DNA of 32,844 bases from Jimgerdemannia flammicorona (lineage: Eukaryota). Positions 2,043 to 17,474 of this stretch are shown here, piece after piece. The notes under the pieces are model-generated. The model was not told the DNA's origin. It did not search any database and worked only from the letters and a program-made list of their open reading frames with translations. A program made the position numbers and the translations under genes. Where the stretch lies: the NCBI GenBank assembly GCA_003990765.1, contig RBNJ01000330.1:1-32844 (forward strand), in the 5' to 3' direction. How positions within the stretch are numbered: position 1 is the first letter of the stretch; each line of letters begins with the position of its first letter.

Positions 2043-3340
2043 TGTAATGTGCCTGGCTCAATGAAGGCAAATTACAAGGTTGGGGATTGATGCAGTTTGG
2101 CTTGAGCCCCTAGTTACTTTGTCAAAAAGCAACAAAATGTTCTAAGATTCCTGAGGTCCTTGGTGTTTAGTGGTATAATAGTCAAAATCTGGATAATGTG
2201 CAAGTAGTTTCCTTTTTGGGACAAGTTCTTGGGTGTAGTGTAATTTGTATATGTGTGAACAGGTTTCCTAATTGGGTCAACTGGGAATACTACAATTTGT
2301 GTAGCGAGACAATTTCCAAAAGTATGCGATTTCTGGGTGACGGCTTTGGTGCAACGATCTCTGTGTAGCATGACGATCTTGATGCGACGATCTCTGTGTA
2401 GCGCGACTGGTTCCTTATGGGGATGTTCTGATAATTTGGCAGATAACTTGATTTGTCTACTGGGAATGGAGGATGGTGAGGATTCTTCCATATCGGGCTC
2501 ACTGGGAACAAATGAATAACTTGGTGGCAGATAATTCAGATAACTCAGTTAACCTGAATGTCGCGAATCAGGCTCTTCTGGGAATACAGATAACTCGGGC
2601 AGCACAGGTTCTCTGGGAATGTGAATAACTTGTTCTGGGAAATAACTCGGATGGCGTGGATTCTTCTAAATCAGCGGCTTCAACTGGGAATACAGTGGAT
2701 AACTTAAAAATGGCAGATAACTCAGATTCTTGGCAAGTTACGTCAAAGACTGGCTTCGTTTGCATGGGGTTATATCGTTAGACTGGCTCTACTGCAAAGT
2801 TGCATCAGAAAGACTGGCTTGTGGCAAGAAAGGCAGGCTTTTCTGGGATTCTTCAGGCTTATCTGGCAAGCGAACCAAGGGTTTCTCTTCAAAACAGACT
2901 CGTTCTTTGTATCGGAAAGTGGACCAGAGTGGGGAAATAAGCTCACAATCTCCTAGCAGTGGCTGTAGAGTTCCTCTCGAAGTGTGGTAGGCAGACTTGT
3001 CTTTTTGCTTCAATTTCGGAGTGAGGTTTATTCACTCTTGTCTCTGGGGTAATTTATACATTGTGGTTGCTATCTGGGTGCTATGTGGCTAACTATAGAT
3101 TTGCTATCTATGGCAGGTATACAGAGTCTGTATGGTGTATAGGACCTGTACAGTGTACAGAGTCTGTATGGTGTACAGAGTCTGTACAGGTAAACAGACC
3201 CTATCTGGTATGTTCTGCTAATTATACAGTTTCTGCAGCAATGGTTACTGGTTACTATGCTATATGTTCACATCATCTGGCTAATTGTTCACATCATCTA
3301 GCTAAGGTATAATTTGGGTGATATGTCTTAGTTTGTCACA
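2043..3340 (-). repeat. 3' LTR of the family A gypsy element (1298 bp)
   Basis: The minus strand reads TGTGACAAAC...CATTACA. It aligns with 8524-8715 + 14427-15538 and, inverted, with 17475-18970. Confidence 0.95.
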
Positions 3341-3352
3341 TCAGCCCCCACT
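3341..3352 (-). promoter_or_regulatory. Polypurine-tract-like plus-strand priming site
   Basis: AGTGGGGGCTGA lies immediately 5' of the TG of the 3' LTR on the minus strand. Confidence 0.7.
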
Positions 3353-3412: not shown

Positions 3413-3900
3413 CGTCATTCTCTGGAAGGTGGGGGGTATATTGCAAAGTCCAAAGGGCATTTAGAGGTACTCAAACAGTTTTCCTAGAGTAAGGAAGGCT
3501 GTCTTTTGGATGTCCTTTGGGTCCATGGGGATCTCATGGAATCCTGCAAAGAGGTCCATACTGCTGAAGTATCTGGCATCTTGTAACTGATCTAAGAGGT
3601 CATCAATTCTGGGCAGAGGATATGCATCTTTTTCGGTGACTGAATTGAGTTTTCTGTAATCCACGCAGAGTCTCCATCCTCCTTTCTTTGGTACAATAAG
3701 TATAGGGCTGGCCCAGGGGCTGGTAGAGGGTTGGATGACCCCATTATCTAAGAGTTCTTGAATGTGCTCCTTTTTGAATGTTTTCAAGTGATGGGGTATT
3801 CTATAGAGTTTCTGCCAGATGGGTGTTGCATTTCCTGTATTTATACTGTAGTGATATGATGGATTGTATGGCAGATTGCCTTAATTGGTGGTGAAGATAT
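3413..3900 (-). pseudogene. Ty3/gypsy reverse transcriptase, N-terminal half only
   Basis: IQPSTSPWASPILIVPKKGGWRLCVDYRKLNSVTEKDAYPLPRIDDLLD...KTAF...EYL*MPFGLCNIPPTFQRM. The sequence stops before the YxDD motif. Confidence 0.95.
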
Positions 3901-4389
3901 CTGGATATTTTTTGAGAAGTTCTACTAGTTGTTGCTATTATTGAGGTGTCAATTCTTCTCCAATGTTGGTGGAAGGCTTCACTGTCTCCTGGAGTGCAGA
4001 GGGGCCCTTCCTTTCTTCTGGGACCTTTTACCATTTCCCAATAGGTTTAGTTCATAAACCTCCCTATGAGTTCGGTTGAGAAAAGGCACCAGATGTCCTA
4101 TGATGGTTCCTTTTGGCAAGATGATGGTTTCCCAACTTTGGTTGGCTGCTTGGGAATGTACTGGATTCATCTTGTCAGGGAATGTATGTCCCTCTATGTC
4201 CAGGTGAGGAATATCTTCCTTGAGTTCAAAGAAAAGGTTTCTGAGATCAGGTATTGCAAAGATTTCGAAAGTTGTTTGTTCTCCAGGCTCTAGGATGAGA
4301 TTCTTGTACAGTCTGACTGGTTGCCAGTACACTTGTTGGGGAGCATTCTTCTTGAGGTGGTTGACTTGAAGGAGATGTACTTTCTTCTT

Positions 4390-4795
4390 GTCTGAGCTTC
4401 CAAATCCTTTGGCTTGCCTTGTTCCTTCAGTCAGTTCAGATACTTCCTGTAATTGCAGGGTCCTGACCTTCATGAAGACTGCTTGGGCAATCTTCTGTCC
4501 TCTAATGATTTGGTGCTATTCTGCACTGCTGTTGTGTAGGATAACCTTGATATTACCTTTATATCCTGGGTCGATGGTTCCTCCTTCTACAGTTATTCCT
4601 TGTCTGGCAAGTCCAGACCTTGAGGTCAATTGGATGTAAGCTCCTTGGGGTGGCTGCATGGCTAATCTGGTTCTGATCATGAATATTTTTCCAGACTTGA
4701 TAGATTCATCCTCCAGACTATGAAGATTATACCCAACATCTTCTGGGTGGGCTTTAGTCGGGGGTTTGGCCTTGGGATGTAGCAGGGCATACTGG
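4390..4795 (-). pseudogene. Trimeric dUTPase domain inside gypsy pol, between PR and RT
   Basis: Motifs I-V are recognisable: DVGYNL, RSGLA, GTIDPGYKGNI, KIAQ, RQAKGFGSS. One in-frame stop at 4516-4518. Confidence 0.93.
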
Positions 4796-6089
4796 GCAAT
4801 GTTCTTGCTGAGTTCAGGCTGTCCTAGAGCTGAGGCTCTACTAGCAGAGAGCCTCCAAGCTCTAAGATTGAGGTGTGGCCATCTGGCTCCAGTAGAGGGG
4901 TCTTGGAGATAGTTGATTCCCCTTCTTCCTATAGAGTCAAGGGCTTCCATGAAGTTGGTGGCATCTTCTGCCCATCCTTGGTGGGTTTTATGTCTGATGA
5001 GAGCTAGGATGTCTTCTCCCAAATCATAGATCTTGAGAACTCTTCTTCCTGGCTTCCTGGTTTGGCTTTTTCGGATCTGGCCTCTGTTGTCTCCTCTCTT
5101 TAGAGTGTGGACTGCAACATCATGACTGAGGTGAATCTTCTGATATCTGCAGTCTTGGCAGTCAGGGTGTCTTCTATGGTTGCAATATCCCATTGCTCAG
5201 AAATGATGTTCCTTGTTATTGATTTCTTGTTGCCTTGGGAATCAGTACCCATCTTGGTCATAAGTGGGTGAAAGAGTAGACAAGGGATATATTTCTGTCC
5301 AGGTGAAGAAGCCTTGCCCTCTGAATCAGCTTTGCAATTTGGTGGTGACTTCTTGAAAGGTAGTTGACTGTGCAAGTATGTTCAGGGGTTCTGGTCTCTG
5401 GGGTCTCTGTCTCTCCTGTTGGTCCAGTAAATGGCACTGATAGCAATAGTCTTAGGGAGAGTGAAAGATCATTTGGTATGGTCATCTTCCTAATTGAAAA
5501 GCTTTCTCTTGGTGAGTTTCTTTCTTGGGGATAATAGTGATTGTACTGGGTCCTTTTTCTGTATTCCAGGGGTCATTGTCTTCAGATGGTGTCCAGCAAG
5601 GATCATCCCAGGGAATGAGTTCAGGGGTCTCTTCTTCTTCAGGTACTTCTTGTTTGGGAACTTCTTGGTCAGAAGTTTCTTTTTCCTCAGATGATTCTTG
5701 ACCCCAAATTGCTTGTACTTCTGCAGCCTCAGTTGCAGGTGTTTCTGGAACATATCTGCATTTCTTCTTCTTCCTTCTGTACTCTGGGCAGGCTGTGTCA
5801 GGTGATTTCCTTATTCCCATGATCTTGGAGGAGTACTCAGGACACTTGTGTCTCTTGAGGCAGATAGGGCATCCTTTGACTTCTCCTGCAATGGCTCCAA
5901 TGGTGATGGGGATGGTGTTCTTAGCCCACACATTATCTTCTGGTCTGTCATCCACCAGGTTAATTTGGGGATTGAGTCTGGGATCATTTCCATCTTCAGA
6001 TTCTTCCTCTTCTTCTGTGGTAGATTCCTCACTACTGGCATATTCTTTCTGAATAGTGACCTTCTTCTTCTTCTTTGATTGCTCATAGC

Positions 6090-6450
6090 TAGTTACCTTA
6101 ACTCTATACTTCTTGCCTCAGTAATCAAACTTGAGAACTTGTTGGCCAATATTGATGACTGCATTCATTTCCTTCATCCAGTTGGTGCCAAGAATCATGT
6201 CATAGATGACAGCTTCAGTGACAACAGCTTTGGGGATAGAGAACTGAATGTGTCTGAGGGAGATAGTGATATTTCGTACTTCTCCAAGGGGTTGGGTTCA
6301 GGCTCCATCTGCTACTATGATGCTGAGGTTGGATGGTCCATCAATGGGCCATTGAAGGGTGTCTAGGAACTATTTGGCAATGATACAGACAGCTGCTCCT
6401 GTATCTATGTGGATTTTCGCCTTTTGTCCTCCAATATCTCCATGTAGGTA
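6090..6450 (-). pseudogene. Retroviral-type aspartic protease (approximate bounds)
   Basis: The minus strand at ~6380-6420 reads AKIHIDTGAAVCII; a downstream MILGTNWM matches the ILG-D motif position. Confidence 0.85.
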
Positions 6451-8490
6451 GGTACTGATATGTCTTTCAGCTGCCTGAACAGGGATGGGAACTGGTTCTT
6501 GCTGTGGGATTGGGACTTGGCCAGTGCTAGACCTGGTGGTTCTCAGCAATTTGTTTCAGACTCTGGCTGGTGTCAGTTGCAGGAACTGCAGGAGGGAGAC
6601 TTCCATCTTCACCTCTTGAATCTTCTGCCAGGCTTCATTGTAAATGTCCCTAGACATGGTCTTTGGAGTGTACTTCTTCTTGGGCCTTGGCGCAGCAGGT
6701 TCCTGTTCTTCTTGTTCCATTTCTTCATCTTCTGATAGTAACTCATTTGCCTTAGGAACAAAAGGTGACAGGGTTTGGGGAGGTGTTTCTACCTGTTCCT
6801 CTTCATGTTCTTTATTCTCTTCTTGGATAATTCTTCTGCTGATGTTCCTGGATGGCCTTTCCACAGGTCTCTTCCTTTTCTCTGCTGGGTAAACTGTTTT
6901 TCGAGAGATGACCTTAGTAGGGTATAAGTCTAAGTTGCTATAGTCTTCACTGTTGCTTGCTTCCTCAAAATCTTCTACAGGATGGGCTTCAGTCTTCTTG
7001 TACTGAGTGTTGTTCCTTCGGTTTGGTGGTTCTGAGTCCCTTTGGTCACTTCTTTTGTTGTCACATTCAGTGGCATAGTGTCCAAATTGTCCACAGTAGA
7101 AGTATTGGACTTGGGCTCTGTCTCAGATGAGATATCTTCTTTCTTCTTGGTGATAACCCCTGTTGTCTCTGGGTGGATAACTTTGGTTCCTCTGTGGTGG
7201 GTATCCTCTGTTATCTTGGTAGCTCCAGTTTTTGTGTATAGTGAGTTTTTCAATCTGTCTAACCAATTGGTCCAACTTGGAGCTAATGTCTTGGATTTTA
7301 TTTCTGTCCTTCTTTCCTTCCTTAGCTGGCCTTCTTTCTTCAGATCTTTCTTGTTCTTGAAGGAGTCCTTGTAGGGCTTTGACCAGGATGTCTTCTTTTT
7401 CTTCTTTTCTGTCATGGTCACTCCAGGTAGTTTCTTGTCTGACATCAAAGAATCCTTGGGCTGCATCTACTTGCTCTTTAGACCTTCTGATGCCTAGGGT
7501 GCAGACATGCTGGACAATTTTTGGGGGAATTCCATTCATGAAGATCATTGGACCAATGATGTCCTGGTTGGTGGTATTGAATCCAGCAGCATGCATTTTC
7601 TTCTGGATTTTTGTAAAGAAGGCTCTGGGTGATTCTCTGAGGTTCATCTTCATTCCCATGATAGATTCTTGAGCCTTGTGGTGGGTTTTGTTTCCTGCAT
7701 ACTTTTTGATAAGCCAGTGGACCATGGTCTCATATTCTAGTTCATCAGACATTGCTGTTTGTATCTGTCTCACCAGTTCTGAATCTTGGTTGTTTGCTAT
7801 TCAATGAAAAATTCCTCTGGCTGGTTCTCTGAGCTGAGCTTTGTAGATGGCAATTTTTCTTTCATCTGAGAGATTTCTCAAGGCTGCAATTCCTTCAATT
7901 CCATCAAGAAATTCTCTGGGGTCTTCCTCTGAATATCCTGCAAAGGTTGGTAATGAGGTGGCCATTTCATCATCACTTCCTTCTGATTCTAGTTCTGGTT
8001 CGGATTCTGATTCCAGTTCACTTTCTGAGCTGTCACTGGAGATAGGGGTGCTTAGGTATCTTGAAGATGGTGTTCTAGACCTTGGATGAAATTGAATAGG
8101 TCTAGGTATTCTTGTAGGAGCTACTTTCAGCTCTGCAAGGGGTTGTGGTAAAGGTTCTATTGGTGAAATTGGTGGGGCTGATCTGGGGCATCTGGCTGTA
8201 AGGTCTCGGGTTCATGTGATAAGGTCTTCTAGTTCTTGTGCAAGTTCTCCAAAATCTCTAACAGGGCTGCCTGTATTGTCTGGTTGATCTGGTTGAGAAT
8301 TTCAGGCTATACTGCCTTCTGGTTCAGGTTGGGATCCTTCTGATGCTGGGTAATTGACAAGTCTTGAAGTAATTACTTCTCTTCCTGTCCAGATGCTGGT
8401 GATAACTAGTTCTCCTGTAGTAGCAGAGGTTGGTGTTGTATCAAATGTATCCAGTTTGACTGTGGGTTCTTGTGAGCTGAAAAGTTGCAT
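6450..8490 (-). pseudogene. Gypsy gag with CCHC zinc knuckle, frameshifted and with stops
   Basis: ATG at 8490 just after the PBS; capsid-like LPTFAGYSEEDPREFLDGIE; knuckle YFYCGQFGHYATEC at 7064-7105 (first Cys mutated). Confidence 0.85.
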
Positions 8491-8715: not shown

Positions 8716-8948
8716 CAATGTTTTTGCCATAATGTCGATCTATGCTAGGGAGGTGTAACTATACTACGTTTTGCATAATGTCAACTATGCTATGCTCACA
8801 TGATGTCAATCCTCGTGATAAAACACCAATAACTCCTTGTCACCGAAATGACCATACATCACTCCGAAATCCTAGGAAAGAAACCTCAAATAAATGATCG
8901 ATTGTTCTGTATTTGGGTGGAAACACACAGTATAAAAGACTGGCCCAA
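8716..8948 (-). repeat. Ngaro split direct repeat B2 (233 bp)
   Basis: Direct repeat of 9236-9468. Confidence 0.92.
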
Positions 8949-8982
8949 CCACTATGTATATATATGTAAGGTGAGGTGGGTG

Positions 8983-9235
8983 GTAATGAAATGCGTACGA
9001 ATGTACGAAAGTGCAAAAGCATAAGTGTAAAGTGCATATGAAGTAATGTTGGGTGAATGGTAGAATTACATATACATAGAAGTAATGCGCCTACTGCGCT
9101 AGTACCAAAAAAGGAAAGACTATGCCTGATTTAGAAACGCCTTAGACAAACAATGGCATTGAAACATTTTGGGCGCTATACGCCCAAGACCTTCCTGCAT
9201 TCATTGACCTGTGGTCTCGAGTGAGCCCCCTCATT
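8983..9235 (-). repeat. Ngaro split direct repeat A2 (253 bp)
   Basis: Direct repeat of 14178-14426 with a 4-bp indel. Confidence 0.92.
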
Positions 9236-9468
9236 TAATGTTTTTGCCGTAATGTTGATCTACGCTAGGGAGGCATAACTATACTACGTTTTGCATAATG
9301 TCAACTATGCTACGCTCACGTGATGTCAATCCTCATGATAAAACACCAATAACCCCGTGTCACCGAAATGACCATGCATCACCCCGAAATCCTAGGAAAG
9401 AAACCTCAGATAAATGATTGATTGTTCTGTATTTGGGTGGAAACACACGGTATAAAAGACCGGCCCAA
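9236..9468 (-). repeat. Ngaro split direct repeat B1 (233 bp)
   Basis: Direct repeat of 8716-8948; abuts A2 exactly. Confidence 0.92.
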
Positions 9469-9650
9469 ATGTTATATGTAAAATGTGTGGGATGATGATG
9501 TGTAGCAGTGTGAGTTGGCAGTGCCGAAAGAAAGAACTCAGCCCAAATGAAGTAAAAAGGGGGGTTATGGATGTGGAAATGTGAGCGGAGTAGATGATAG
9601 AAAGGTGCCGAAGGCTTAATAGAAAGGCCGCGCCCAATGTCGATGATATG

Positions 9651-10014
9651 GCTGGTGTCATGAGCCACGCGGTTAAAACCGAGGGCAGGTGTCGCGAATC
9701 GTGTGACAGCCAAGAAGCTGATTTAACGAGCCCAGTGATCAAGGGATAGAACTGGTGTCACGAGTTGCGTGGGGGTCCGAGTAGGCTGGTGTCGTGAGCT
9801 GCGCGATAACGAAAAGAAGGAGGGCTGGTGTTGCGAGCCGCGCAATATCGGAAAAGGTTGGTATCGCGAACTACACGGTGGCAAGAGGCTGAGGTGGGTG
9901 GATTAAAGGCTGGTGTCGTGAGCCACGCAGTGATGTAAGGCCGATGAGGAGAGGTAAAGGCTGGTGTTGCGTGCTGCGCGGGACCCAGAATAAGCTGGTG
10001 TCACAGGCTATGCA
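9651..10014. repeat. Array of 10 copies of a 21-nt motif (consensus GCTGGTGTCGCGAGCCGCGCG) with non-repeating 11-31-nt spacers
   Basis: Copies start at 9651, 9685, 9717 (degenerate), 9751, 9785, 9824, 9857, 9909, 9960 and 9994. Confidence 0.85.
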
Positions 10015-10039
10015 GTAGAAAAAAAGGAATGGGAAATCG

Positions 10040-11047
10040 TTAACCACAAGTAATATGAGTAACAGAACAAGTATTATGAGTTAATGAAGCCCGAAGGTGG
10101 AGAATGCAAGAAATAGGCATGTGAATATAGCCTTTAAATGCCACACTCTCCCACTGACCCAACATCTGAATCTCGTAATCGGATAAACCGGCCGCAGCAG
10201 TATCAGATGTTGCACCAATCCGAAAACTATGCCCAGCATAAAGAAGCAGATTCAGACCAATCCGTGGAAGTAACATGTGAAGACAACTAACGAGATAGGC
10301 CCGAGAGAACGATCAATTCGCGGAACGCCGGAACAGAGGGGTGTCGGGTGGGGCTGGGTGCGCCAGGTAATGAAGGCGAAGTAAGGATACAATGCATGGC
10401 GTGGTGGGATCCATTTTGGCGATAAAAAGTGTTGCACCCTGGCAAAACGGGTCTGTTTTAGAGGCCGGCAGGGTGAGCGTAATATGGGTGGGGTCGGCAA
10501 TGCTAGGTTGAAAGACCACAGAGCTGCGGGACAGCTGGGAAACGGGATCGAAAGACCTGTCCCACGTAAATTCGCCAGAGCAAAGAAAGCCGACATATGC
10601 AAGCGACATCGTGGTCATAAGATGCAGATCGTCATAATCAGATAGCTGAAGCAAACTGATAAGACTGCGAAGAATACCGAGCATGATAGAAAGCCGAGGT
10701 CGAGTTGGGCATATGCCTAGCCACCACTTCACGCCATGCATCACTTGGGGAAGTTGGTGAAGACTGATGAATGGATCGGCAAAACTGGAGTTGATGTGTA
10801 GAGAACGAACAGCTGAGAGGTAACATTTGATTGTGGATGGTTGAAGCCGTCACAAGGCCAAGCTACAGACCCACCGCACTAGCACCAGTTCGGATGCGGG
10901 CAAAGGCCCGCCGGAGGCATGATTACCGCCATAGAGATTGCAGAATTGGAGGAAGCTGTGTTGTCCTGAAGAGTATGAGCGGCGCGTTGATTTTGCCAGT
11001 CCGAACCACAAAAAGAAGGCAACGATGGGTGGAAGCGCAGAATGCAA
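10040..11047 (-). pseudogene. Ngaro tyrosine recombinase with N-terminal SAM-like domain
   Basis: A single frame with two TGA stops (10850, 10313): GLAKSTRRSY; GFL(C)SGEFT (catalytic R mutated); SKTDPF; YAGHSFRIGA; LGQWES.AFKGYI. Confidence 0.95.
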
Positions 11048-11079
11048 ACGATACCAATCGTGGTCAGGAGCGTCTGAGC

Positions 11080-12720
11080 TTATGGGGCAAGACGACGGAA
11101 ATGAGGAAGATCAGCGCGGGATAAAGCATCAGCAATGCCGTTATCGGACGTCGAGATGAATATAGCACGAAGTTGAAAAGCGTGATGCACCATTTGAAAA
11201 TAGAGCTGGTGGATAAGTTCCAGCAGAAGAGGGTTGTGTGAAGAGCCCGAGTTGATAATAGCGACGACCGCCTGATTATCAGAATGAAGCAATATATGGT
11301 GAAAACACCATTGAGCGCCCCAGGTAGCAGCAGCAGCGACCACGGCGTAAAGTTCCTTGAACTGAATGTCGCGTGAGGCTATATCGGGAGGCCAGGGAGT
11401 GGAAAACTATTCGCTATTGAAATGTGCACCAAAGCCTTAGATCCCGCTGGCGTCTATCCATAATTGTGCATCAGGCTCGTGGAACCATGCCACCGGATAT
11501 ATAACGGAAATGCCATTCCAGTGGGGTAGGATTTCGAGCCACCAATGAATGTCGGCATAGAATTCCTCATTCAGTGAGATATGGAATGAGGCGTTGCCGG
11601 AAAGAAGGTCGATAAACCGCCGCAGGAATGGGCGGCCCAGTGGAATGATTTTACAGGCAAATGCCAAGGAACCAATCAGAGACTGCAGTTGAGGGCATGT
11701 ACATAACGTGCACGATAGCCACTGCTGAAGGGTGGCGAGCAACGTGTCAATCTTGCCGAGAGGCAGGCAGGCTTCCATAGCCATTGTATCCAATTCGATG
11801 CCCAGAAAGACGAGTGACATTGTCAGGCCTTCGACCTTGCACTCTTGAATCGACCAGCTGAGATGACAACAGATAGCAAGAAGTAAACATAGGTCGGAGA
11901 GGGCAAACGGCTGGAGCGGTGGTGAAACGAGGAGAAAATCGTCGATGTAGTAGATGAGCGCGCATATGTCATGATGGTGGGCGATCCATGCAAGAAGTTC
12001 CGCAAAAAGGTTGAAAAGAAATGGTGATGAGGATGCACCAAAAGGAGTGAACCGATTGAAATAAAACTGCCCCGACCACTCGAAACCCAGCAACTCCCAA
12101 TCCGTAGGATGGATGAGAATATGACAATATGCATCGGTGAGGTCGACCTTCGATAGAAGACATCCCTGGCCAAAACGACGAACCAGGTCCAAAGCCTCGT
12201 CGAACTTAATGTAAGAGAGCTGGAAGGCATCGGTATCTATGCCGGTATTCACCGAATCGCCGTGACAGGGCCAAGAAAGGTCGTGAATACGACGCCATGC
12301 GCTATTAGAATTCTTCTTCACGACGGCACTGAGAGGAGATGAGCGAAAGCATTCGAATGGAGGGGATGAGAACGGGCCACAAATTCTACCAGCAGCAACT
12401 TCCCGCTCAATGTCAGACGTGATTGCTTCCGGGTGGTCGAGAGCGGAGCAATGATTATAGGACAGCAGGTGCCAACGAGGCCCATCAAAGCCGAGAAGAG
12501 CGCCTTGAGTAATAGTGGTGATGGCAGCCTGAGCTACCCGCGGGGCAGGATACAACTGGAGCTCACGCGCCCATGCGACAGAGCGAAGAGCAGAAGAAGG
12601 AAGAGGAAAACGACATAGAATGTCTTGAGCAGCTTCGTTGAGAGGGGCGGTAAATGGGTGGCAGAGTAGGGTATTTGGAGCAGCCGGGGGTATGTGTAAA
12701 GAATAAATAGGGGCGAGTTC
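11080..12720 (-). pseudogene. Ngaro pol: reverse transcriptase plus RNase H
   Basis: WRRIHDLSWP, KVDLTDAY, PFGASSSP, YIDDFL, FLGIELDT, WIDASG, DIQFKELY, SDNQAVV, NGIADALSR in one frame, with stops at 11437 and ~11408. Confidence 0.95.
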
Positions 12721-13985
12721 CTAGAGGCGAGACGATGGATTGTGGGAGCATCGATACCACGGATGATCACTATTACAGCGAGAACAGGAATGCACATAAG
12801 GGCATCCTTTTCTATTGCACCCAGGATCCTTCATGGGTGATCCATCGAATAGAATGCCGTTGTATGCCCGACAAGTAGACTGTTGAGAGGCTTTCTCGGT
12901 AGATGAAGCGGAGGAGCCATCAGTAAGACGTAGCCCCCATTGTACGTTGCGAGACTTGAAGGGCTTAAGCGGATTAGATGTAGAGGTCGGAGTTCGCGGA
13001 TGTTGATGTAGACTAAGGATCATAAAGAGGTTGGGGTCGCACTGGGCCCAGTGCTCGCACCATATCAAAGAAACACCATCGTTCGCGATCTTCGCCAGTC
13101 GTTTTGTGTGAAAGGAGACATGATAATCGAGAAGCACAGACCAATACGACAACGTCGATAGTAAAATAAAATCCGCGGCATATGAAAAGAATGGAGTAGG
13201 ATCGGTGAGGCCCGGATACGTGTCATGAAGAACGCTGAAATACGTAAGCAAGGCAGCGAGGAAAGCAGGGACATCCGGAAGATCTTTGATAAGGGATGGC
13301 GGCTTTCGAAGAATAATCTGGGCACCCGATTCGTCAAACGTTTCGATGAATTGAGCATCAGGAAGACCACCGATAGAAACGACATTTCGCTCTAAGAAAT
13401 GGCCGAGCGACATGGCAGTGAACAAATTGTCGATGACCATGGCCAACAGCCATTGATTAACATGGGCGTATTTTAAAGAGAGATTGACACCTCAGACAAT
13501 GGTATGGGCAGAGATGACAGAAGGAGGTATAGGGATGGACTCACCCTGGGGATTACCAGCAGGGCCGTGAATGCCAGTGGACCGAACCGAAGGAATGTCG
13601 GTAAGGGCTGGGATGAGGATGGGAATGCGAGAACCGCCGAAAGAGAGGCAGTAGTGCGATCGATAAAGGCTTAATCGATGATGGGAGATGCGTCCTGACC
13701 AGAAATGGCAGGAACTGCACTAGCCGGTGCCGCCAAAGATACGATGTCAGGGCGAGAGTGTAAGAGCTGAAAAAGTTCATTGAACTGATGGTCTTGTATG
13801 GATGCATGCTCTTGGAGCTGAGCAACGCTGGCTTCAATGGAAACATCAGAGGCCGGTGTGCTGAAAAAAGCTGGTCCGGCTGCCATAGTACTAGCGGGAG
13901 CCTTGGATGCGGCATGCGCTGATAGATGCGTGATTCGGCGGGGTGCGGAAGTAGAGTGATCAGGGAGGGTGGTGAGATAATCCAC
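12721..13985 (-). pseudogene. Ngaro gag-like ORF1 with C-terminal Cys/His zinc-finger cluster (start approximate)
   Basis: C-terminal CRAYN...CNRKGCPYVHSCSRCNSDHPWYRC is typical of DIRS/Ngaro ORF1. The upstream part is broken by stops and one frameshift. Confidence 0.85.
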
Positions 13986-14177
13986 GAGGATAGCAACATT
14001 GGGGTTCTCGCTATCAGATTCCAGGTCATCTTACAGAAAACGGAGCACATGCTCGATGAAATTAATGTCCAAGCGGAAAGGGCAGGTGGCAGAGCCCAGG
14101 TCGTGTTGGCCCTTCAACATATGGGAAGGGTCGTATTGACACAAAAGGCAGGAATTTGCGGAGAGGACTATGGTAAT

Positions 14178-14426
14178 GTAATGAAATGCATACGAATGTA
14201 CGAAAGCACAAAAGCATAAGTGTAAAGCGCATACGAAGTAATGTTGGGTGAATGGTAGAATTACATATAGAAGTAATGCACCTACCACGCTAGTACCAAA
14301 AAAGGAAAGACTATGCCTGATTTAGAAATGCCTTAGACAAACAATGGTGTTGAAACATTTTGGGTGCTATACGCCCAAGACCTTCCTGCATTCATTGACC
14401 TATGGTCTCGAGCGAGCCCCCTCATT
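14178..14426 (-). repeat. Ngaro split direct repeat A1 (249 bp), 5' terminus
   Basis: Direct repeat of 8983-9235. Confidence 0.92.
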
Positions 14427-15538
14427 GTAGCGGCAATTTGTATGTATGTGAATGGGTTCCTTCTTGGGTCAACTGGGAATACTACAATTTGTGTAGTGAG
14501 ACAATTTCCAAAAGTGTGCGATTTCTGGGTGATGGCTTTGGTGCAATGATCTCTGTATAGCACGATGATCTTGATGCAATGATCTCTGTATAGTGCGACT
14601 GGTTCCTTATGCGGATGTTCTGATAATTTGGCAGATAACTCAATTTGTCTACTGGGAATGGAGGACGGCACGGATTCTTCCATATTGGGCTCACTGGGAA
14701 CAAATGAATAACTCAGTGGTGGATAATTTAGATAACTCGGTTAATCTGGATATCGCGAATCAGGCTCTTCTGGGAATACAGATAACTCGGGTGGTGTGAG
14801 TTCTCTGGGAATGCGAATAACTTGAAAATGGCAGATGACGCAGATTCTCCGGAATCGGCGGGCTTCTGGGAAATAACTCGGAAGGCGCAGATTCTTCTAA
14901 ATCGGCAGCTTCAACTGAGGATACGGCAGATAACTTAAAAACGGCGGATAACTTGGATTCTTGGCAAGTTACGTCAAAGACTGGCTCCACTGCAAAGTTG
15001 CGTCAGAAAGACTGGCTTGTGGCAAGGAAGGCAGGCTTTTCTGGGATTCTTCAGGCTTATCTGGCAAGCGAACCAAGGTTTTCTCTTCAAAACAGACTCA
15101 TTCTTTGTATCGGAAAGTGGATCGGAGTGGGGAAATAAGCTCACAATCTCCTAGCAGTGGCTGTAGAGTTCCTCTCGAAATGTGGTAGGCAGATTTGTCT
15201 TTTTGCTTTAATTTCAGACTGAGGTTTATTCACTATTGTCTCTGGGGTAATTTATACATTGTGGTTGCTATCTGGTTGCTATGTGGCTAACTATAGATTT
15301 GCTATCTATGGTAGGTGTACAGAGTCTGTATGGTGTACAGGACCTATATAGTGTACAGAGTCTATATGGTGTACAGAGTCTGTATAGGTAAACAGACCCT
15401 ATCTGGTATGTTCTGCTAATTATACAGTTTCCATAGCAATGGTTGCTGGTTACTATGCTATGTGTTCAGGTCATCTGACTAATTGTTCATGTCATCTAGC
15501 TAAGGTATAATTTGGGTAGTATGTCTTGGTTTGTCACA
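14427..15538 (-). repeat. 5' portion of the family A 5' LTR
   Basis: Aligns with 2235-3340, ends ...TTGTCACA, and is followed by TSD ATAG. Confidence 0.95.
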
Positions 15539-17474
15539 ATAGCCTGGGAGATCTTATAAAATTACCACCAGTAGGCATCTATATCAAATAGATTCCATCT
15601 GTAAGTACAACTGTTCAATCTCTAAATGAAGTTCAAGAAGAGTATCTGAGACTATGCTAACTATATTGATGATCTGGCAAATCAAGTAAATTTCCTTTCT
15701 ATGCTAACATATCTTATCAAGGATGAAGACAAGGTTCTAGTCCTTATATATGATCTTTCCAAGATATATAATATAGTTGTCACCACTATGAAAACTATTA
15801 GACTATAAATATATCATTATGAGTCTCCTGAATGAGAAATTAAGGCTAGATGGCAATGATAATGAAAATAATGAAAAAATATTCTACAGAGCATATAAAT
15901 AAGGCAAAGAAAAACTGAATAAAGGATGAGGGCAAAACCAGTAGTATGATGGTCAATGAGCTAAATTTGATAATAAGTACTTCTACTGTAATAAGTATGA
16001 ATACTATAAGCAAGACTACAACTATAAGAAGAAAGAAAAGAGTGGTCAAGGTAAGTAACATAAACAGATATCAATGTAAGCTATATGCTGAGTATTTATA
16101 TATATCATAAAGAAGTCTGGCTTATGGATTCTGGTGCAATATAGTATATGAAAGTATACTATAAATAGCTCTATATATAAGAAGTTTGAGCACTATATAT
16201 CTCTCAAATTAGGTAACAATAATATCATTTATGCTCAAGGGAAGGGAAATATCAGTAATTATCTATATAGGAATATTGATGAATCCTCAGACATCTTTAT
16301 AGATATATTATATATACTAGATATAGATAAGAACCTCTTCTCAATAGGCTGGAAAATAGCTTGAGGAGATAAAGGAGTAAATAGATATAATGTGATCAAT
16401 CTAAAGAACAATTTGGAGCTAATATATATATCAAAAAGGGGAAATCTATGTGTAATTAATATTATACTGAGTTGTATATTATCTATACATTCTACAATAG
16501 TAACTGATACCTGACATATATAGTATGAATACTTGAAACACATTGGCAAGATAAGCTTTAAATAGATGATAAAAAGTAAATATATATATATAAATTACCA
16601 AACTATATACTATCTGATTTCAGATTTTGTAATAGATATATATATAGTAAATAAGACTTTCTAGTAACTATTTCTATAATGAATAAAGTGAGTGATGGGC
16701 ATTCTCAATATGATATATATGGATATCTGTAGTCCTATGTATGTATACTTCAACATACTTAGAGAAGAGGTACTTTATTACCTTCATTAACAATTATACT
16801 TATAAATTCTATATATACTTTTTTATAGTAAAGAATGAGGCATTTGAAAAATTCCAAGATTTCAAGACAATTATGAAAAACAAAATGGAATATAAAATAT
16901 AGACCCTATGCTCAGATAATGGTAAGAAATATATCAATAAAGCCTTTAGATAGTTCTTGAAGGAGTATAGTATCTAATACTCTATAATAGCTCTCTATAT
17001 ACTTAAACAGAATGGTATGGCAAGACATGATAATTGAATAGTAGTAGAGTTGGCTTAAACAATAGATGAATGGCTGGCTTACTATCTTTTAGGCTGAAGC
17101 AGTGAATATAGTAGCATATATCCAAATCATTATATTTCTCAAGCTCTAAGTAAGGATTTTGGCAGATTTAGTAATAATTAGCAATTTAGAATAATAGTAA
17201 TCTTACTATTAAAGAATTGTAGAATAGATCTAAGCCCAATATCTTGCACCTATAAATATTTAGAAGTGAGACTTATGTCTTAAATATGAGTAATAATGGA
17301 GATAAATTTTAGCCTAAAGTAGATAAGTACATACTCCTTAGATATAATAGAGTAGTATATAGATTATGGAATCTGCAGAAATAGCATATAGTCATCTCTC
17401 CATTCAGTTCAAGGAAATCAAAGAGTAGGAAATTTGAATGAAAATTTCTATTTCTATAAACTCAATAGTACTAC

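What the first reader, a model, noticed from the sequence alone, without database searches (positions are those of the whole stretch)
9651..10014. Repeat-spacer array (10 x 21 nt, variable spacers) directly downstream of the Ngaro tyrosine recombinase
Seen: ten copies of GCTGGTGTCGCGAGCCGCGCG, most deviations being transitions, at periods 34, 32, 34, 34, 39, 33, 52, 51, 34. The 11-31-nt spacers are purine-rich and do not align with each other. The array starts ~25 nt after the YR stop and ends ~180 nt before repeat B1. Most periods are not multiples of 3, so it is not a coding repeat. A conserved core with free spacers differs from a simple minisatellite. The core has internal symmetry (GCT-N9-AGC; CGCG-AGC-CGCG). 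One spacer shares TGAGGTGGGTGG (9890-9901) with the 34-nt A2-B2 linker (8972-8983), which may be chance. Established: Ngaro elements are defined by split repeats; I know of no such array as a standard part of them. Inference: multimerised binding sites (YR arm-type, Gag packaging or host factor) or a processed small-RNA cassette. It looks CRISPR-like in architecture, but no cas genes are present.
Basis: partly seen in the sequence, partly recalled or inferred. Interest (0 to 1): 0.72.

Follow-up and report, generated by a model that had tools for sequence, protein, structure and literature searches.

The report
Motif array in Ngaro retrotransposon tail
Ten copies of a 21-base motif, separated by unrelated filler, lie in the non-coding tail of a dead tyrosine-recombinase retrotransposon; they look like a cluster of recognition sites the element once needed and are not a CRISPR-like system.

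Summary
Ten copies of GCTGGTGTCGCGAGCCGCGCG lie at the stated positions and periods. They sit on the antisense strand of a minus-strand Ngaro element, A1-ORF1-RT/RH-YR-array-B1-A2-B2. The copy is dead, with two in-frame stops in YR, and is nested in an older Gypsy element.

Of 43 core deviations, 37 are transitions and 28 are CpG-type. CpG survival in the cores (22 of 50) matches the decay seen between the split repeats. So the cores were nearly identical at insertion. The spacers were already no more alike than their composition predicts (22/78 against 0.295). That asymmetry argues for selection on the core and against a plain decaying minisatellite.

No other copy of this family was within reach. 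Among distant Ngaro-like loci, 6 of 22 families carry motif clusters in the same place. Several are short hairpins, one class with strong covariation. Hairpin evidence for the window's core is weak.

Best reading (0.4): a multivalent cis-acting site in the 3' UTR, read as RNA or cDNA. Rivals are a neutral 3'-UTR repeat (0.3) and DNA-level sites (0.15). The CRISPR-like reading is rejected.

The parts
9651..10014 (-). Array of ten 21-nt cores with nine spacers of 11-31 nt. The element's sense strand is the minus strand, where the core reads as the reverse complement of GCTGGTGTCGCGAGCCGCGCG.
   Evidence: Core starts (+ strand): 9651, 9685, 9717, 9751, 9785, 9824, 9857, 9909, 9960, 9994.
10040..11098 (-). 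Tyrosine recombinase (YR) reading frame. It is decayed, with in-frame TGA at 10852-10850 and 10315-10313, and the terminal TAA at 10042-10040.
   Evidence: tblastn of this frame hits 72 of 80 related loci downstream of their RT. The homologous ORFs of L038 and L004 pass the Pfam Phage_integrase cut-off. The window's own frame gives no significant Pfam hit.
11080..11406 (-). RNase H-like ORF piece
   Evidence: RVT_3, E 2.4e-4, 21.5 bits, just under the 21.6 cut-off.
11437..12720 (-). Reverse transcriptase ORF
   Evidence: RVT_1, E 1.6e-10, 41.5 bits; 109 homologues, best 41-45% identity.
12721..13491 (-). ORF1, Gag-like by position, with a Cys/His-rich C-terminus
   Evidence: translation. The Cys/His motif was read by eye. 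No Pfam family was found.
14178..14430 (-). Split direct repeat A1 (5' end of the element)
   Evidence: D2, D4: 93-95% to A2.
9237..9468 (-). Split direct repeat B1. It probably extends to about 9500.
   Evidence: D1: 232 nt, 93% to B2.
8983..9235 (-). Split direct repeat A2
   Evidence: D2, D4.
8949..8982 (-). It is a diverged extension of repeat B.
   Evidence: it aligns to 9469-9502 with score 27 against a null of 14.6 +/- 3.9; 5 of 1000 shuffles reach that score.
8717..8948 (-). Split direct repeat B2 (3' end of the element)
   Evidence: D1.

Best explanation
The array is a multivalent cis-acting element in the 3' untranslated region of a Ngaro tyrosine-recombinase retrotransposon. The active ancestor carried about ten nearly identical copies of a 21-nt GC-rich motif, strung on unconstrained linkers, between the YR stop codon and repeat B1.

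My preferred mechanism is inferred, not shown. Each motif, possibly a weak 4-bp stem (GGCT/AGCC) with a 9-nt loop and a CGCGCG tail, is a binding unit on the element's RNA or its first-strand cDNA. The binding partner would be an element-encoded protein. The Cys/His-rich Gag-like ORF1 protein is the first candidate and the reverse transcriptase the second. Many copies would give avidity for selective packaging of the template or recruitment to it.

Shown here: the array is real, it lies inside the element, and it is non-coding. Its cores were far better conserved than its spacers before this copy died. Most later changes are CpG transitions of the kind expected from cytosine methylation.

Inferred: that the conservation reflects selection, that the ligand is a protein, and that the nucleic acid read is single-stranded.
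For: 1. Core against spacer. In the four period-34 units with 13-nt spacers, pairwise identity is 22/78 (28%) for spacers, equal to the 0.295 expected from composition. It is 51/66 (77%) for non-CpG core columns (Fisher p=3e-9). The spacers as a set align no better than shuffled spacers.

2. CpG decay accounts for most core change. 28 of 43 core deviations are CpG-type, and 22 of 50 core CpGs are intact. In the split repeats, which were identical at insertion, there are 29 transitions and 1 transversion, 24 of them CpG-type. Only 8 of 25 CpGs are intact in both copies, which implies roughly half survive per copy. The cores were therefore close to identical when this copy inserted. A CpG-rich core that is better conserved than CpG-poor spacers is the opposite of neutral decay.

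3. The same place in relatives. 22 Ngaro-like families had at least 600 nt after the YR. In 6 of them a 12-mer cluster within 900 nt after the YR exceeds all 20 shuffles (L004 family, L008 family, L011 family, L016, L043, L053 family).

4. Motifs shared across families. AGGGTG-TGTCGCTGC-CACCCT occurs in the L004 family and L016 (coding identity 79%). GGAGG-CCCAACT-CCTCC occurs in the L011 and L019 families (74%). A GATTATCAC loop occurs in L043 and L053 (66%).

5. Covariation in a relative. The GATTATCAC class is a hairpin with covarying stems: 88.9% of cells are paired, 14 cells change on both sides, and 0 of 500 shuffles reach this.

6. Weak stem signal in the window. For GGCT/AGCC, 90% of cells are paired against at most 47.5% when the partner is slid. 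Three of 4 pairs change on both sides, and 21 of 500 shuffles reach that.

7. Context from a paper. How YR retrotransposons start cDNA synthesis is unknown, and a 3' hairpin has been proposed as the primer for DIRS-1 (passage of PMC7192593).
Against: Only one decayed copy of this family could be examined, so selection is inferred from within-array contrasts and not from a multi-copy alignment.

The array does not fold better than shuffles on either strand (z = -0.10 for sense and -1.00 for the + strand). It shows no enrichment of perfect hairpins of 5 bp or more (22 of 30 shuffles do as well).

The proposed stem has only 4 bp, and its covariation signal is marginal (21/500 and 32/500). The alternative CGCG/CGCG stem is no better than the same stem slid by 2 columns.

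16 of the 22 related families show no cluster by the k-mer test. One of them is L063, the only relative in which both split repeats could be verified.

The motifs of the different classes are unrelated in sequence, so homology of the arrays is not shown.

There is no expression, binding or structure-probing evidence.
Confidence: 0.4

Rival explanations
1. Neutral hypervariable 3'-UTR repeat. On this reading the array is a by-product of replication, made by strand-transfer errors or slippage of reverse transcriptase. That is the origin proposed for the tandem repeats in the 3' UTRs of Tat/Ogre LTR retrotransposons. It would have no function of its own.
For: The position, between the last ORF and the 3' terminal repeats, matches the Ogre case (Discussion passage of PMC7004042). 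Two adjacent unit pairs (5/6 and 7/8, the latter with periods 52 and 51) look like local duplications. In the L004 family the whole 43-nt unit is repeated, spacer included, as in an ordinary tandem repeat, and copy number differs between L004 (5) and L016 (4). Most relatives (16 of 22 families) have no such cluster.
Against: A neutral array should lose core and spacer similarity together, and CpG-rich parts fastest. Here the CpG-rich core is conserved (77% at non-CpG columns), while the spacers sit at the random level of 28%. TRF does not see a tandem repeat. Motifs are shared between families whose coding regions are only 66-79% identical.
Confidence: 0.3
2. Double-stranded DNA sites. On this reading the cores are direct-repeat binding sites on the DNA form of the element. 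They would serve either as accessory ('arm-type') sites for the tyrosine recombinase, or as sites for a host transcription factor. The core contains the palindrome TCGCGA and several CGCG.
For: The repeats are direct, in one orientation, with variable spacing and a conserved 21-bp core. This is the layout of arm-type sites and iterons (recalled knowledge). The array lies about 150-180 nt from B1, near the B-A junction region.
Against: The core does not recur at or near the element's ends or the B1/A2 junction. No other site in the window comes within 7 mismatches. In the relatives the corresponding motifs have covarying stems, which points to base pairing in a single strand and not to a duplex site. 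An upstream activating site about 5 kb downstream of A1 would be badly placed for a fungal promoter (inference from general knowledge).
Confidence: 0.15
3. A CRISPR-like or small-RNA-producing cassette, in which the repeats are processing signals and the spacers carry information.
For: Only the superficial repeat-spacer look.
Against: The spacers are 11-31 nt, purine-rich, and have no match in the window beyond what shuffled spacers give. There was no Rfam family, no tRNA and no significant fold. The surrounding ORFs are retroelement genes. The 34-nt units are too short for known hairpin precursors (general knowledge). The DNA carries eukaryotic retrotransposons and CpG-type decay.
Confidence: 0.02

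Closest known systems
Hypervariable 3'-UTR tandem repeats of plant Tat/Ogre Ty3/gypsy retrotransposons (Macas et al. 2009, as cited and described in PMC7004042; passages seen)
   Same: Short repeats inside a retrotransposon, between the last ORF and the 3' terminal repeat. They are thought to arise during reverse transcription.
   Different: Those are true tandem repeats whose whole monomer is repeated, and they vary among copies. Here only a 21-nt core is conserved and the linkers are unrelated. The host element is also of a different order (YR-encoding Ngaro, not LTR/integrase).
Clusters of short stem-loops downstream of the YR gene in Ngaro-like metagenome loci found here (L043, L053, L004 family, L016, L011 and L019 families)
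   Same: They occupy the same position, starting 200-700 nt after the YR, against 26 nt here. They have 3-8 copies, a conserved 7-9-nt centre, variable spacing, and motifs shared across diverged families.
   Different: Their stems are 5-10 bp and covary clearly. The window's stem is 4 bp with marginal support. The motif sequences are unrelated. Split repeats could be verified in only a few of these contigs.
Multi-stem-loop packaging signals of retroviruses and alphaviruses (recalled knowledge; the papers listed were seen only as a search listing)
   Same: Several short structured motifs with a conserved unpaired part, read multivalently by a Gag or capsid protein.
   Different: Those lie mostly in 5' leaders or coding regions and are shown by experiment. 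Here nothing is shown beyond sequence conservation.
3' hairpin of DIRS-1 mRNA, proposed as primer of reverse transcription (passage of PMC7192593)
   Same: A structured element near the 3' end of a YR-retrotransposon RNA, with a proposed role in starting cDNA synthesis.
   Different: It is a single terminal hairpin in a DIRS1-type element. Here there are ten internal motifs more than 600 nt from the element's 3' end.
Arm-type sites of lambda-family tyrosine integrases, and iterons (recalled knowledge)
   Same: Direct repeats of a conserved site at variable spacing near a recombination or replication site.
   Different: No arm-binding domain is known for Ngaro YRs. The motif is absent from the element's junctions.
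CRISPR arrays
   Same: Repeat-spacer look.
   Different: Eukaryotic retroelement context, irregular spacer lengths, no cas genes, no spacer matches.

Membership tests
Ngaro retrotransposon (the element that holds the array) | Split direct repeats in the order A1-[ORFs]-B1-A2-B2 (as described in PMC8547959, PMC9210276 and PMC3783388; passages seen) | tested here: met
   A: 14178-14426 matches 8983-9235 at 93-95%. B: 9237-9468 matches 8717-8948 at 93%. B1 abuts A2.
Ngaro retrotransposon (the element that holds the array) | Reverse transcriptase and RNase H | tested here: met
   RVT_1 at 41.5 bits (cut-off 29.6). RVT_3 at 21.5 bits (cut-off 21.6, just under).
Ngaro retrotransposon (the element that holds the array) | Tyrosine recombinase downstream of RT/RH | tested here: met
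   The window's frame gives no significant Pfam hit. It does match ORFs downstream of RT in 72 of 80 related loci. Two of 4 such ORFs tested pass the Phage_integrase cut-off, and the other two hit below it.
Ngaro retrotransposon (the element that holds the array) | No methyltransferase domain between RH and YR (this separates Ngaro from DIRS/PAT) | tested here: inconclusive
   Only about 80 nt of DNA lie between the RH piece (ends 11080) and the YR frame (from 11098), which leaves no room for an MT domain. No MT-specific search was run.
CRISPR array | Near-identical repeats with unique spacers of nearly uniform length, in a prokaryote, usually beside cas genes | tested here: not met
   Spacers are 11-31 nt. 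The neighbours are retroelement ORFs. The context is a nested eukaryotic retrotransposon.
Minisatellite / ordinary tandem repeat | Head-to-tail copies alike over the whole unit | tested here: not met
   TRF reports nothing here at score 30 or above. Spacer identity is at the random level.
Hypervariable 3'-UTR repeats of LTR retrotransposons (Tat/Ogre type) | Tandem repeats between the last ORF and the 3' terminal repeat, varying in monomer and copy number among copies of the element | tested here: inconclusive
   The position criterion is met. The whole-unit tandem criterion is not met. Variation among copies could not be tested because no other copy was available.
Hairpin cluster of Ngaro-like relatives (defined here) | Several stem-loops with a conserved loop and covarying stem, downstream of the YR | tested here: inconclusive
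   The position criterion is met. Stem GGCT/AGCC: 90% paired, 3 of 4 pairs change on both sides, 21/500 shuffles. But there is no fold signal and no enrichment of perfect stems.
Z-DNA-forming motif (reported as about 300-fold enriched in zebra finch Ngaro; passage of bioRxiv 10.1101/2025.10.17.683159) | Long run of alternating purine-pyrimidine (about 10 nt or more by the usual definition, which is recalled) | tested here: not met
   The longest alternating run in the consensus core is CGCGCG, 6 nt (read).
Arm-type recombinase sites | Bound by a dedicated N-terminal domain of the integrase | not testable with these tools
   No binding data. The motif is not found near the element's junctions.

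The most novel reading that the evidence does not exclude
Ngaro-type tyrosine-recombinase retrotransposons from fungi to marine animals may share an undescribed class of cis-element. It would be an array of 3-10 short stem-loop or motif units between the recombinase gene and repeat B1, read multivalently by the element's Gag-like protein or reverse transcriptase. That would make it the long-sought packaging or priming signal of this poorly understood order. The window's ten-core array would be the version carried by this family, whose host is probably a fungus.
Probability: 0.2. Interest if true: 0.6.

Novelty: new variant of a known kind. Interest (0 to 1): 0.4.

Why it matters
How tyrosine-recombinase retrotransposons choose their RNA and start reverse transcription is unknown. 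A passage of PMC7192593 states that no primer has been identified for DIRS-1.

A conserved multi-copy motif in the 3' UTR is a concrete candidate cis-signal that can be tested. It is mirrored by hairpin clusters at the same place in distant relatives.

If the array is only a replication by-product, it is still a documented case of internal repeat formation in a Ngaro element. Such repeats are the kind of sequence that seeds satellites in plants.

For annotation, the practical lesson is that a repeat-spacer look in eukaryotic DNA need not suggest CRISPR.

Tried and rejected
Searches that found nothing
- No whole genome is held for the window.
- Sequencing runs: none was listed, and no RNA holder was listed.
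- This scan's earlier notes: nothing on Ngaro or DIRS in this genome, and no look-alike stretch for the array or the RT.
- An exact-pattern scan for two neighbouring cores found 0 matches in genome contigs and 0 in viral contigs.
- The RT profile search of viral contigs found no relative.
- The single metagenome scan returned only distant relatives, at 34-43% RT identity.
- Rfam gave one chance-level hit outside the array (E 0.31). ARAGORN found 0 genes.

Ideas tested and dropped
- Spacers as captured sequence: best matches in the window are no better than for shuffled spacers.
- The shared 12-mer is chance level, and it lies in a B-repeat extension.
- The CGCG-AGC-CGCG mini-hairpin is not better than the same stem slid by 2 columns.
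- A global fold of the array is not significant on either strand.
- Z-DNA: the longest alternating run is only 6 nt.
- Coding repeat: 6 of 9 periods are not multiples of 3, and the two open frames across the array have no Pfam family.

Leads left untested
- The window core on the + strand and the L004-class hairpin on its sense strand share GTGTCGC. The orientation relative to the element is opposite, and the match is short. I treat it as coincidence and did not test it.
- On the + strand the core starts with TGG, like a tRNA primer-binding site. That comparison is recalled only. The strand is the wrong one for a template RNA, and I did not test the idea against tRNA sequences.

Slips corrected
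- Searches failed on term format and were re-sent.
- One search failed on a stop codon in one locus, and that locus was dropped.

Full report
1. WHAT IS THERE

The window's + strand holds ten copies of the 21-nt core GCTGGTGTCGCGAGCCGCGCG. They start at 9651, 9685, 9717, 9751, 9785, 9824, 9857, 9909, 9960 and 9994, with 2-7 mismatches to the consensus. The periods are 34, 32, 34, 34, 39, 33, 52, 51 and 34.

Five copies match within three mismatches, and none of 100 dinucleotide shuffles gave a single match. Only two other sites in the whole window, on either strand, come within eight mismatches. Tandem Repeats Finder lists nothing here at score 30 or above, so this is not an ordinary tandem repeat.

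The nine spacers are 11-31 nt long and 75% purine on the + strand.

2. CONTEXT

All genes of the element are on the minus strand. Read in the sense direction, the order is:
- A1, 14430-14178
- ORF1, 13491-12721
- RT, 12720-11437 (Pfam RVT_1, 41.5 bits)
- an RNase H-like piece, 11406-11080 (RVT_3, just under the cut-off)
- a recombinase frame from about 11098 to the TAA at 10042-10040
- the array, 10014-9651
- B1, 9468-9237
- A2, 9235-8983
- a 34-nt stretch
- B2, 8948-8717

This is the A1-[ORFs]-B1-A2-B2 layout that defines Ngaro elements (passages of PMC8547959, PMC9210276 and PMC3783388).

The recombinase frame has two in-frame TGA stops and gives no significant Pfam hit of its own. It does match ORFs downstream of RT in 72 of 80 related loci. 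Two of four such ORFs tested pass the Phage_integrase cut-off.

The 34-nt 'linker' aligns with the sequence beside B1 (score 27 against 14.6 +/- 3.9; 5 of 1000 shuffles). So B is simply about 30 nt longer, and the terminal structure is canonical.

The whole Ngaro element is nested in a Gypsy element. That element's LTRs, 2242-3346 and 14435-15544, are 85.6% identical.

3. DECAY AGAINST ORIGINAL VARIATION

Of the 43 deviations of the ten cores from the consensus, 37 are transitions and 28 are CpG-type. 22 of the 50 core CpGs are intact.

The split repeats were identical at insertion, so they give a clock for decay since then. They differ by 29 transitions and 1 transversion, 24 of them CpG-type. 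Only 8 of 25 CpGs are intact in both copies, which means roughly half survive per copy. That matches the cores.

So most core variation arose after the copy died, and the cores were close to identical at insertion. The spacers were already unrelated:
- Ungapped identity among the four 13-nt spacers is 22/78, equal to the compositional expectation of 0.295.
- Their cores score 51/66 at non-CpG columns (Fisher p=3e-9).
- Gapped alignment of all nine spacers is no better than for shuffled spacers (p=0.86). By eye, only the adjacent pairs 5/6 and 7/8 look like local duplications.

A neutral array would lose its CpG-rich part first, and here the reverse is seen. I take this as the main evidence that the core was under selection in the active lineage. 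It is an inference from one copy.

4. IS THE CORE A HAIRPIN?

The stem GGCT/AGCC, which uses the base before the core, with a 9-nt loop is paired in 90% of cells. When the partner is slid, at most 47.5% are paired. Three of four pairs change on both sides (21 of 500 shuffles reach that), and the covariation score is reached by 32 of 500 shuffles.

The CGCG/CGCG stem is no better than its slide by +2. The array as a whole does not fold better than shuffles (z = -0.10 for sense, -1.00 for the + strand). Perfect stems of 5 bp or more are not enriched.

The hairpin reading is therefore possible but weak.

5. RELATIVES

Exact-pattern scans of two collections found nothing. Protein relatives reach only 41-45% identity, and the named ones are basidiomycetes, molluscs and a tardigrade.

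The one metagenome scan matched 598 stretches, of which 476 encode relatives, and the best 80 were kept. These have 34-43% RT identity. 48 of them have at least 600 nt after the YR match, and they fall into 22 families at 80% nucleotide identity.

In 6 of the 22 families a clustered 12-mer (at most 2 mismatches) within 900 nt after the YR exceeds all 20 shuffles of that region:
- L004 family: 5-6 copies against a shuffle maximum of 4
- L008 family: 8 against 5
- L011 family: 5 against 4 in L011 and 4 against 3 in L013, but absent from L014 and L015, whose contigs diverge right after the YR
- L016: 4 against 3
- L043: 7 against 5
- L053: 4 against 3 (its family mate L054 only ties its shuffles, 4 against 4)

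The window scores 8 against 4 by the same test.

16 families do not pass. Among them is L063, the only contig where both A and B repeat pairs are visible.

The clusters are built of short inverted repeats, and the motifs are shared between families:
- AGGGTG-TGTCGCTGC-CACCCT in the L004 family and L016. Coding identity is 79.3%, and 3'-UTR identity is 82.6% over 362 columns.
- GGAGG-CCCAACT-CCTCC in the L011 and L019 families (coding 73.8%).
- GGGG or GAGAG stems around a GATTATCAC loop in L043 (8 units) and L053 (4 units) (coding 66.2%).

For the last class, covariation is strong. 88.9% of cells are paired, 5 of 6 pairs and 14 cells change on both sides, and 0 of 500 shuffles reach this.

Homology between these clusters and the window's array is not shown.

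6. MECHANISM

I commit to a multivalent cis-acting site in the 3' UTR, read on single-stranded nucleic acid by an element protein (confidence 0.4).

The reasons are the selection signature on the core, the free linkers, the single orientation, the position in the transcribed tail, and the hairpin clusters at that place in relatives. ORF1 ends in a Cys/His-rich stretch, read by eye, with no Pfam family. That makes a Gag-like nucleic-acid binder the first candidate and RT the second.

The literature I could read says that the start of cDNA synthesis in this order is unknown, and that a 3' hairpin was proposed as primer for DIRS-1 (PMC7192593, passage).

The main rival (0.3) is a functionless replication by-product, like the hypervariable 3'-UTR repeats of Ogre elements (PMC7004042, passages). 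It explains the position and the local duplications, but not the contrast between core and spacer.

DNA-level sites for the recombinase or a host factor (0.15) fit the direct-repeat layout. They do not fit the covarying stems of the relatives, and the motif is absent from the element's junctions.

CRISPR-like or small-RNA readings (0.02) fail on context, spacer lengths, spacer matches, Rfam and folding.

7. NOVELTY AND LIMITS

Three Ngaro papers contain neither 'tandem' nor 'hairpin' (PMC3783388, PMC8547959 and PMC9210276; term searches). Three library searches returned no paper describing such an array in Ngaro (one search did not require the word 'Ngaro').

[quoted passage not shown] The window's core has only a 6-nt alternating run.

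[quoted passage not shown] The claim 'not described' is limited accordingly.

Internal repeats in retrotransposon 3' UTRs are a known kind. A conserved-core, free-spacer array in a Ngaro element, with hairpin-cluster counterparts in distant relatives, is a new variant of that kind. Interest 0.4.

Noticed in passing
window 2242-3346 and 14435-15544; Ngaro at 8717-14430: The Ngaro element is nested inside a minus-strand Gypsy element whose two LTRs are 85.6% identical over 1144 nt. The Ngaro 5' end (about 14430) lies within a few bases of the inner edge of the Gypsy 5' LTR (14435).
   Followed up: partly
window 3461-8211 against 10040-13491: CpG observed/expected is 0.06 in the Gypsy coding region but 0.97 in the Ngaro ORFs and 1.05 in the array. 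The older element has lost nearly all its CpGs, while the younger one is in mid-decay. This fits methylation-driven CpG loss in repeats.
   Followed up: partly
window 8949-8982 and 9469-9502: The '34-nt A2-B2 linker' is a diverged extension of repeat B with a TA-repeat length difference. Repeat B is therefore about 265 nt long, not 232.
   Followed up: yes
L043:3799-4001; L053:4313-4448: Eight and at least four short hairpins with the conserved loop GATTATCAC and alternating GAGAG/CTCTC and GGGG/CCCC stems lie 460-680 nt after the recombinase gene. The two Ngaro-like families are only 66% identical in coding sequence. L027 also carries GATTATC-containing inverted repeats.
   Followed up: partly
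L004:5219-5500; L016:3967-4250: The 3' UTR of these two families is as conserved as their coding sequence (82.6% against 79.3%). Upstream of the 43-nt hairpin repeats it holds a further hairpin, GGGTGGGG-loop-CCCCACC, whose loop differs between the families. Repeat number is 5 in L004 and 4 in L016.
   Followed up: partly
window 9655-9662 (+ strand core) against L004 hairpin loop: The window's core on its + strand and the L004-class hairpin on its sense strand share GTGTCGC, followed a few bases later by GCC. Relative to the element the orientation is opposite, so this is probably coincidence.
   Followed up: no
window 10852-10850 and 10315-10313: Both in-frame stops in the recombinase frame are TGA. 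I did not test how they arose.
   Followed up: no
window 4516-5196 (minus strand): The Gypsy element's polyprotein region contains a stretch that looks like a dUTPase. This was read by eye and not tested. It agrees with earlier notes on this genome.
   Followed up: no
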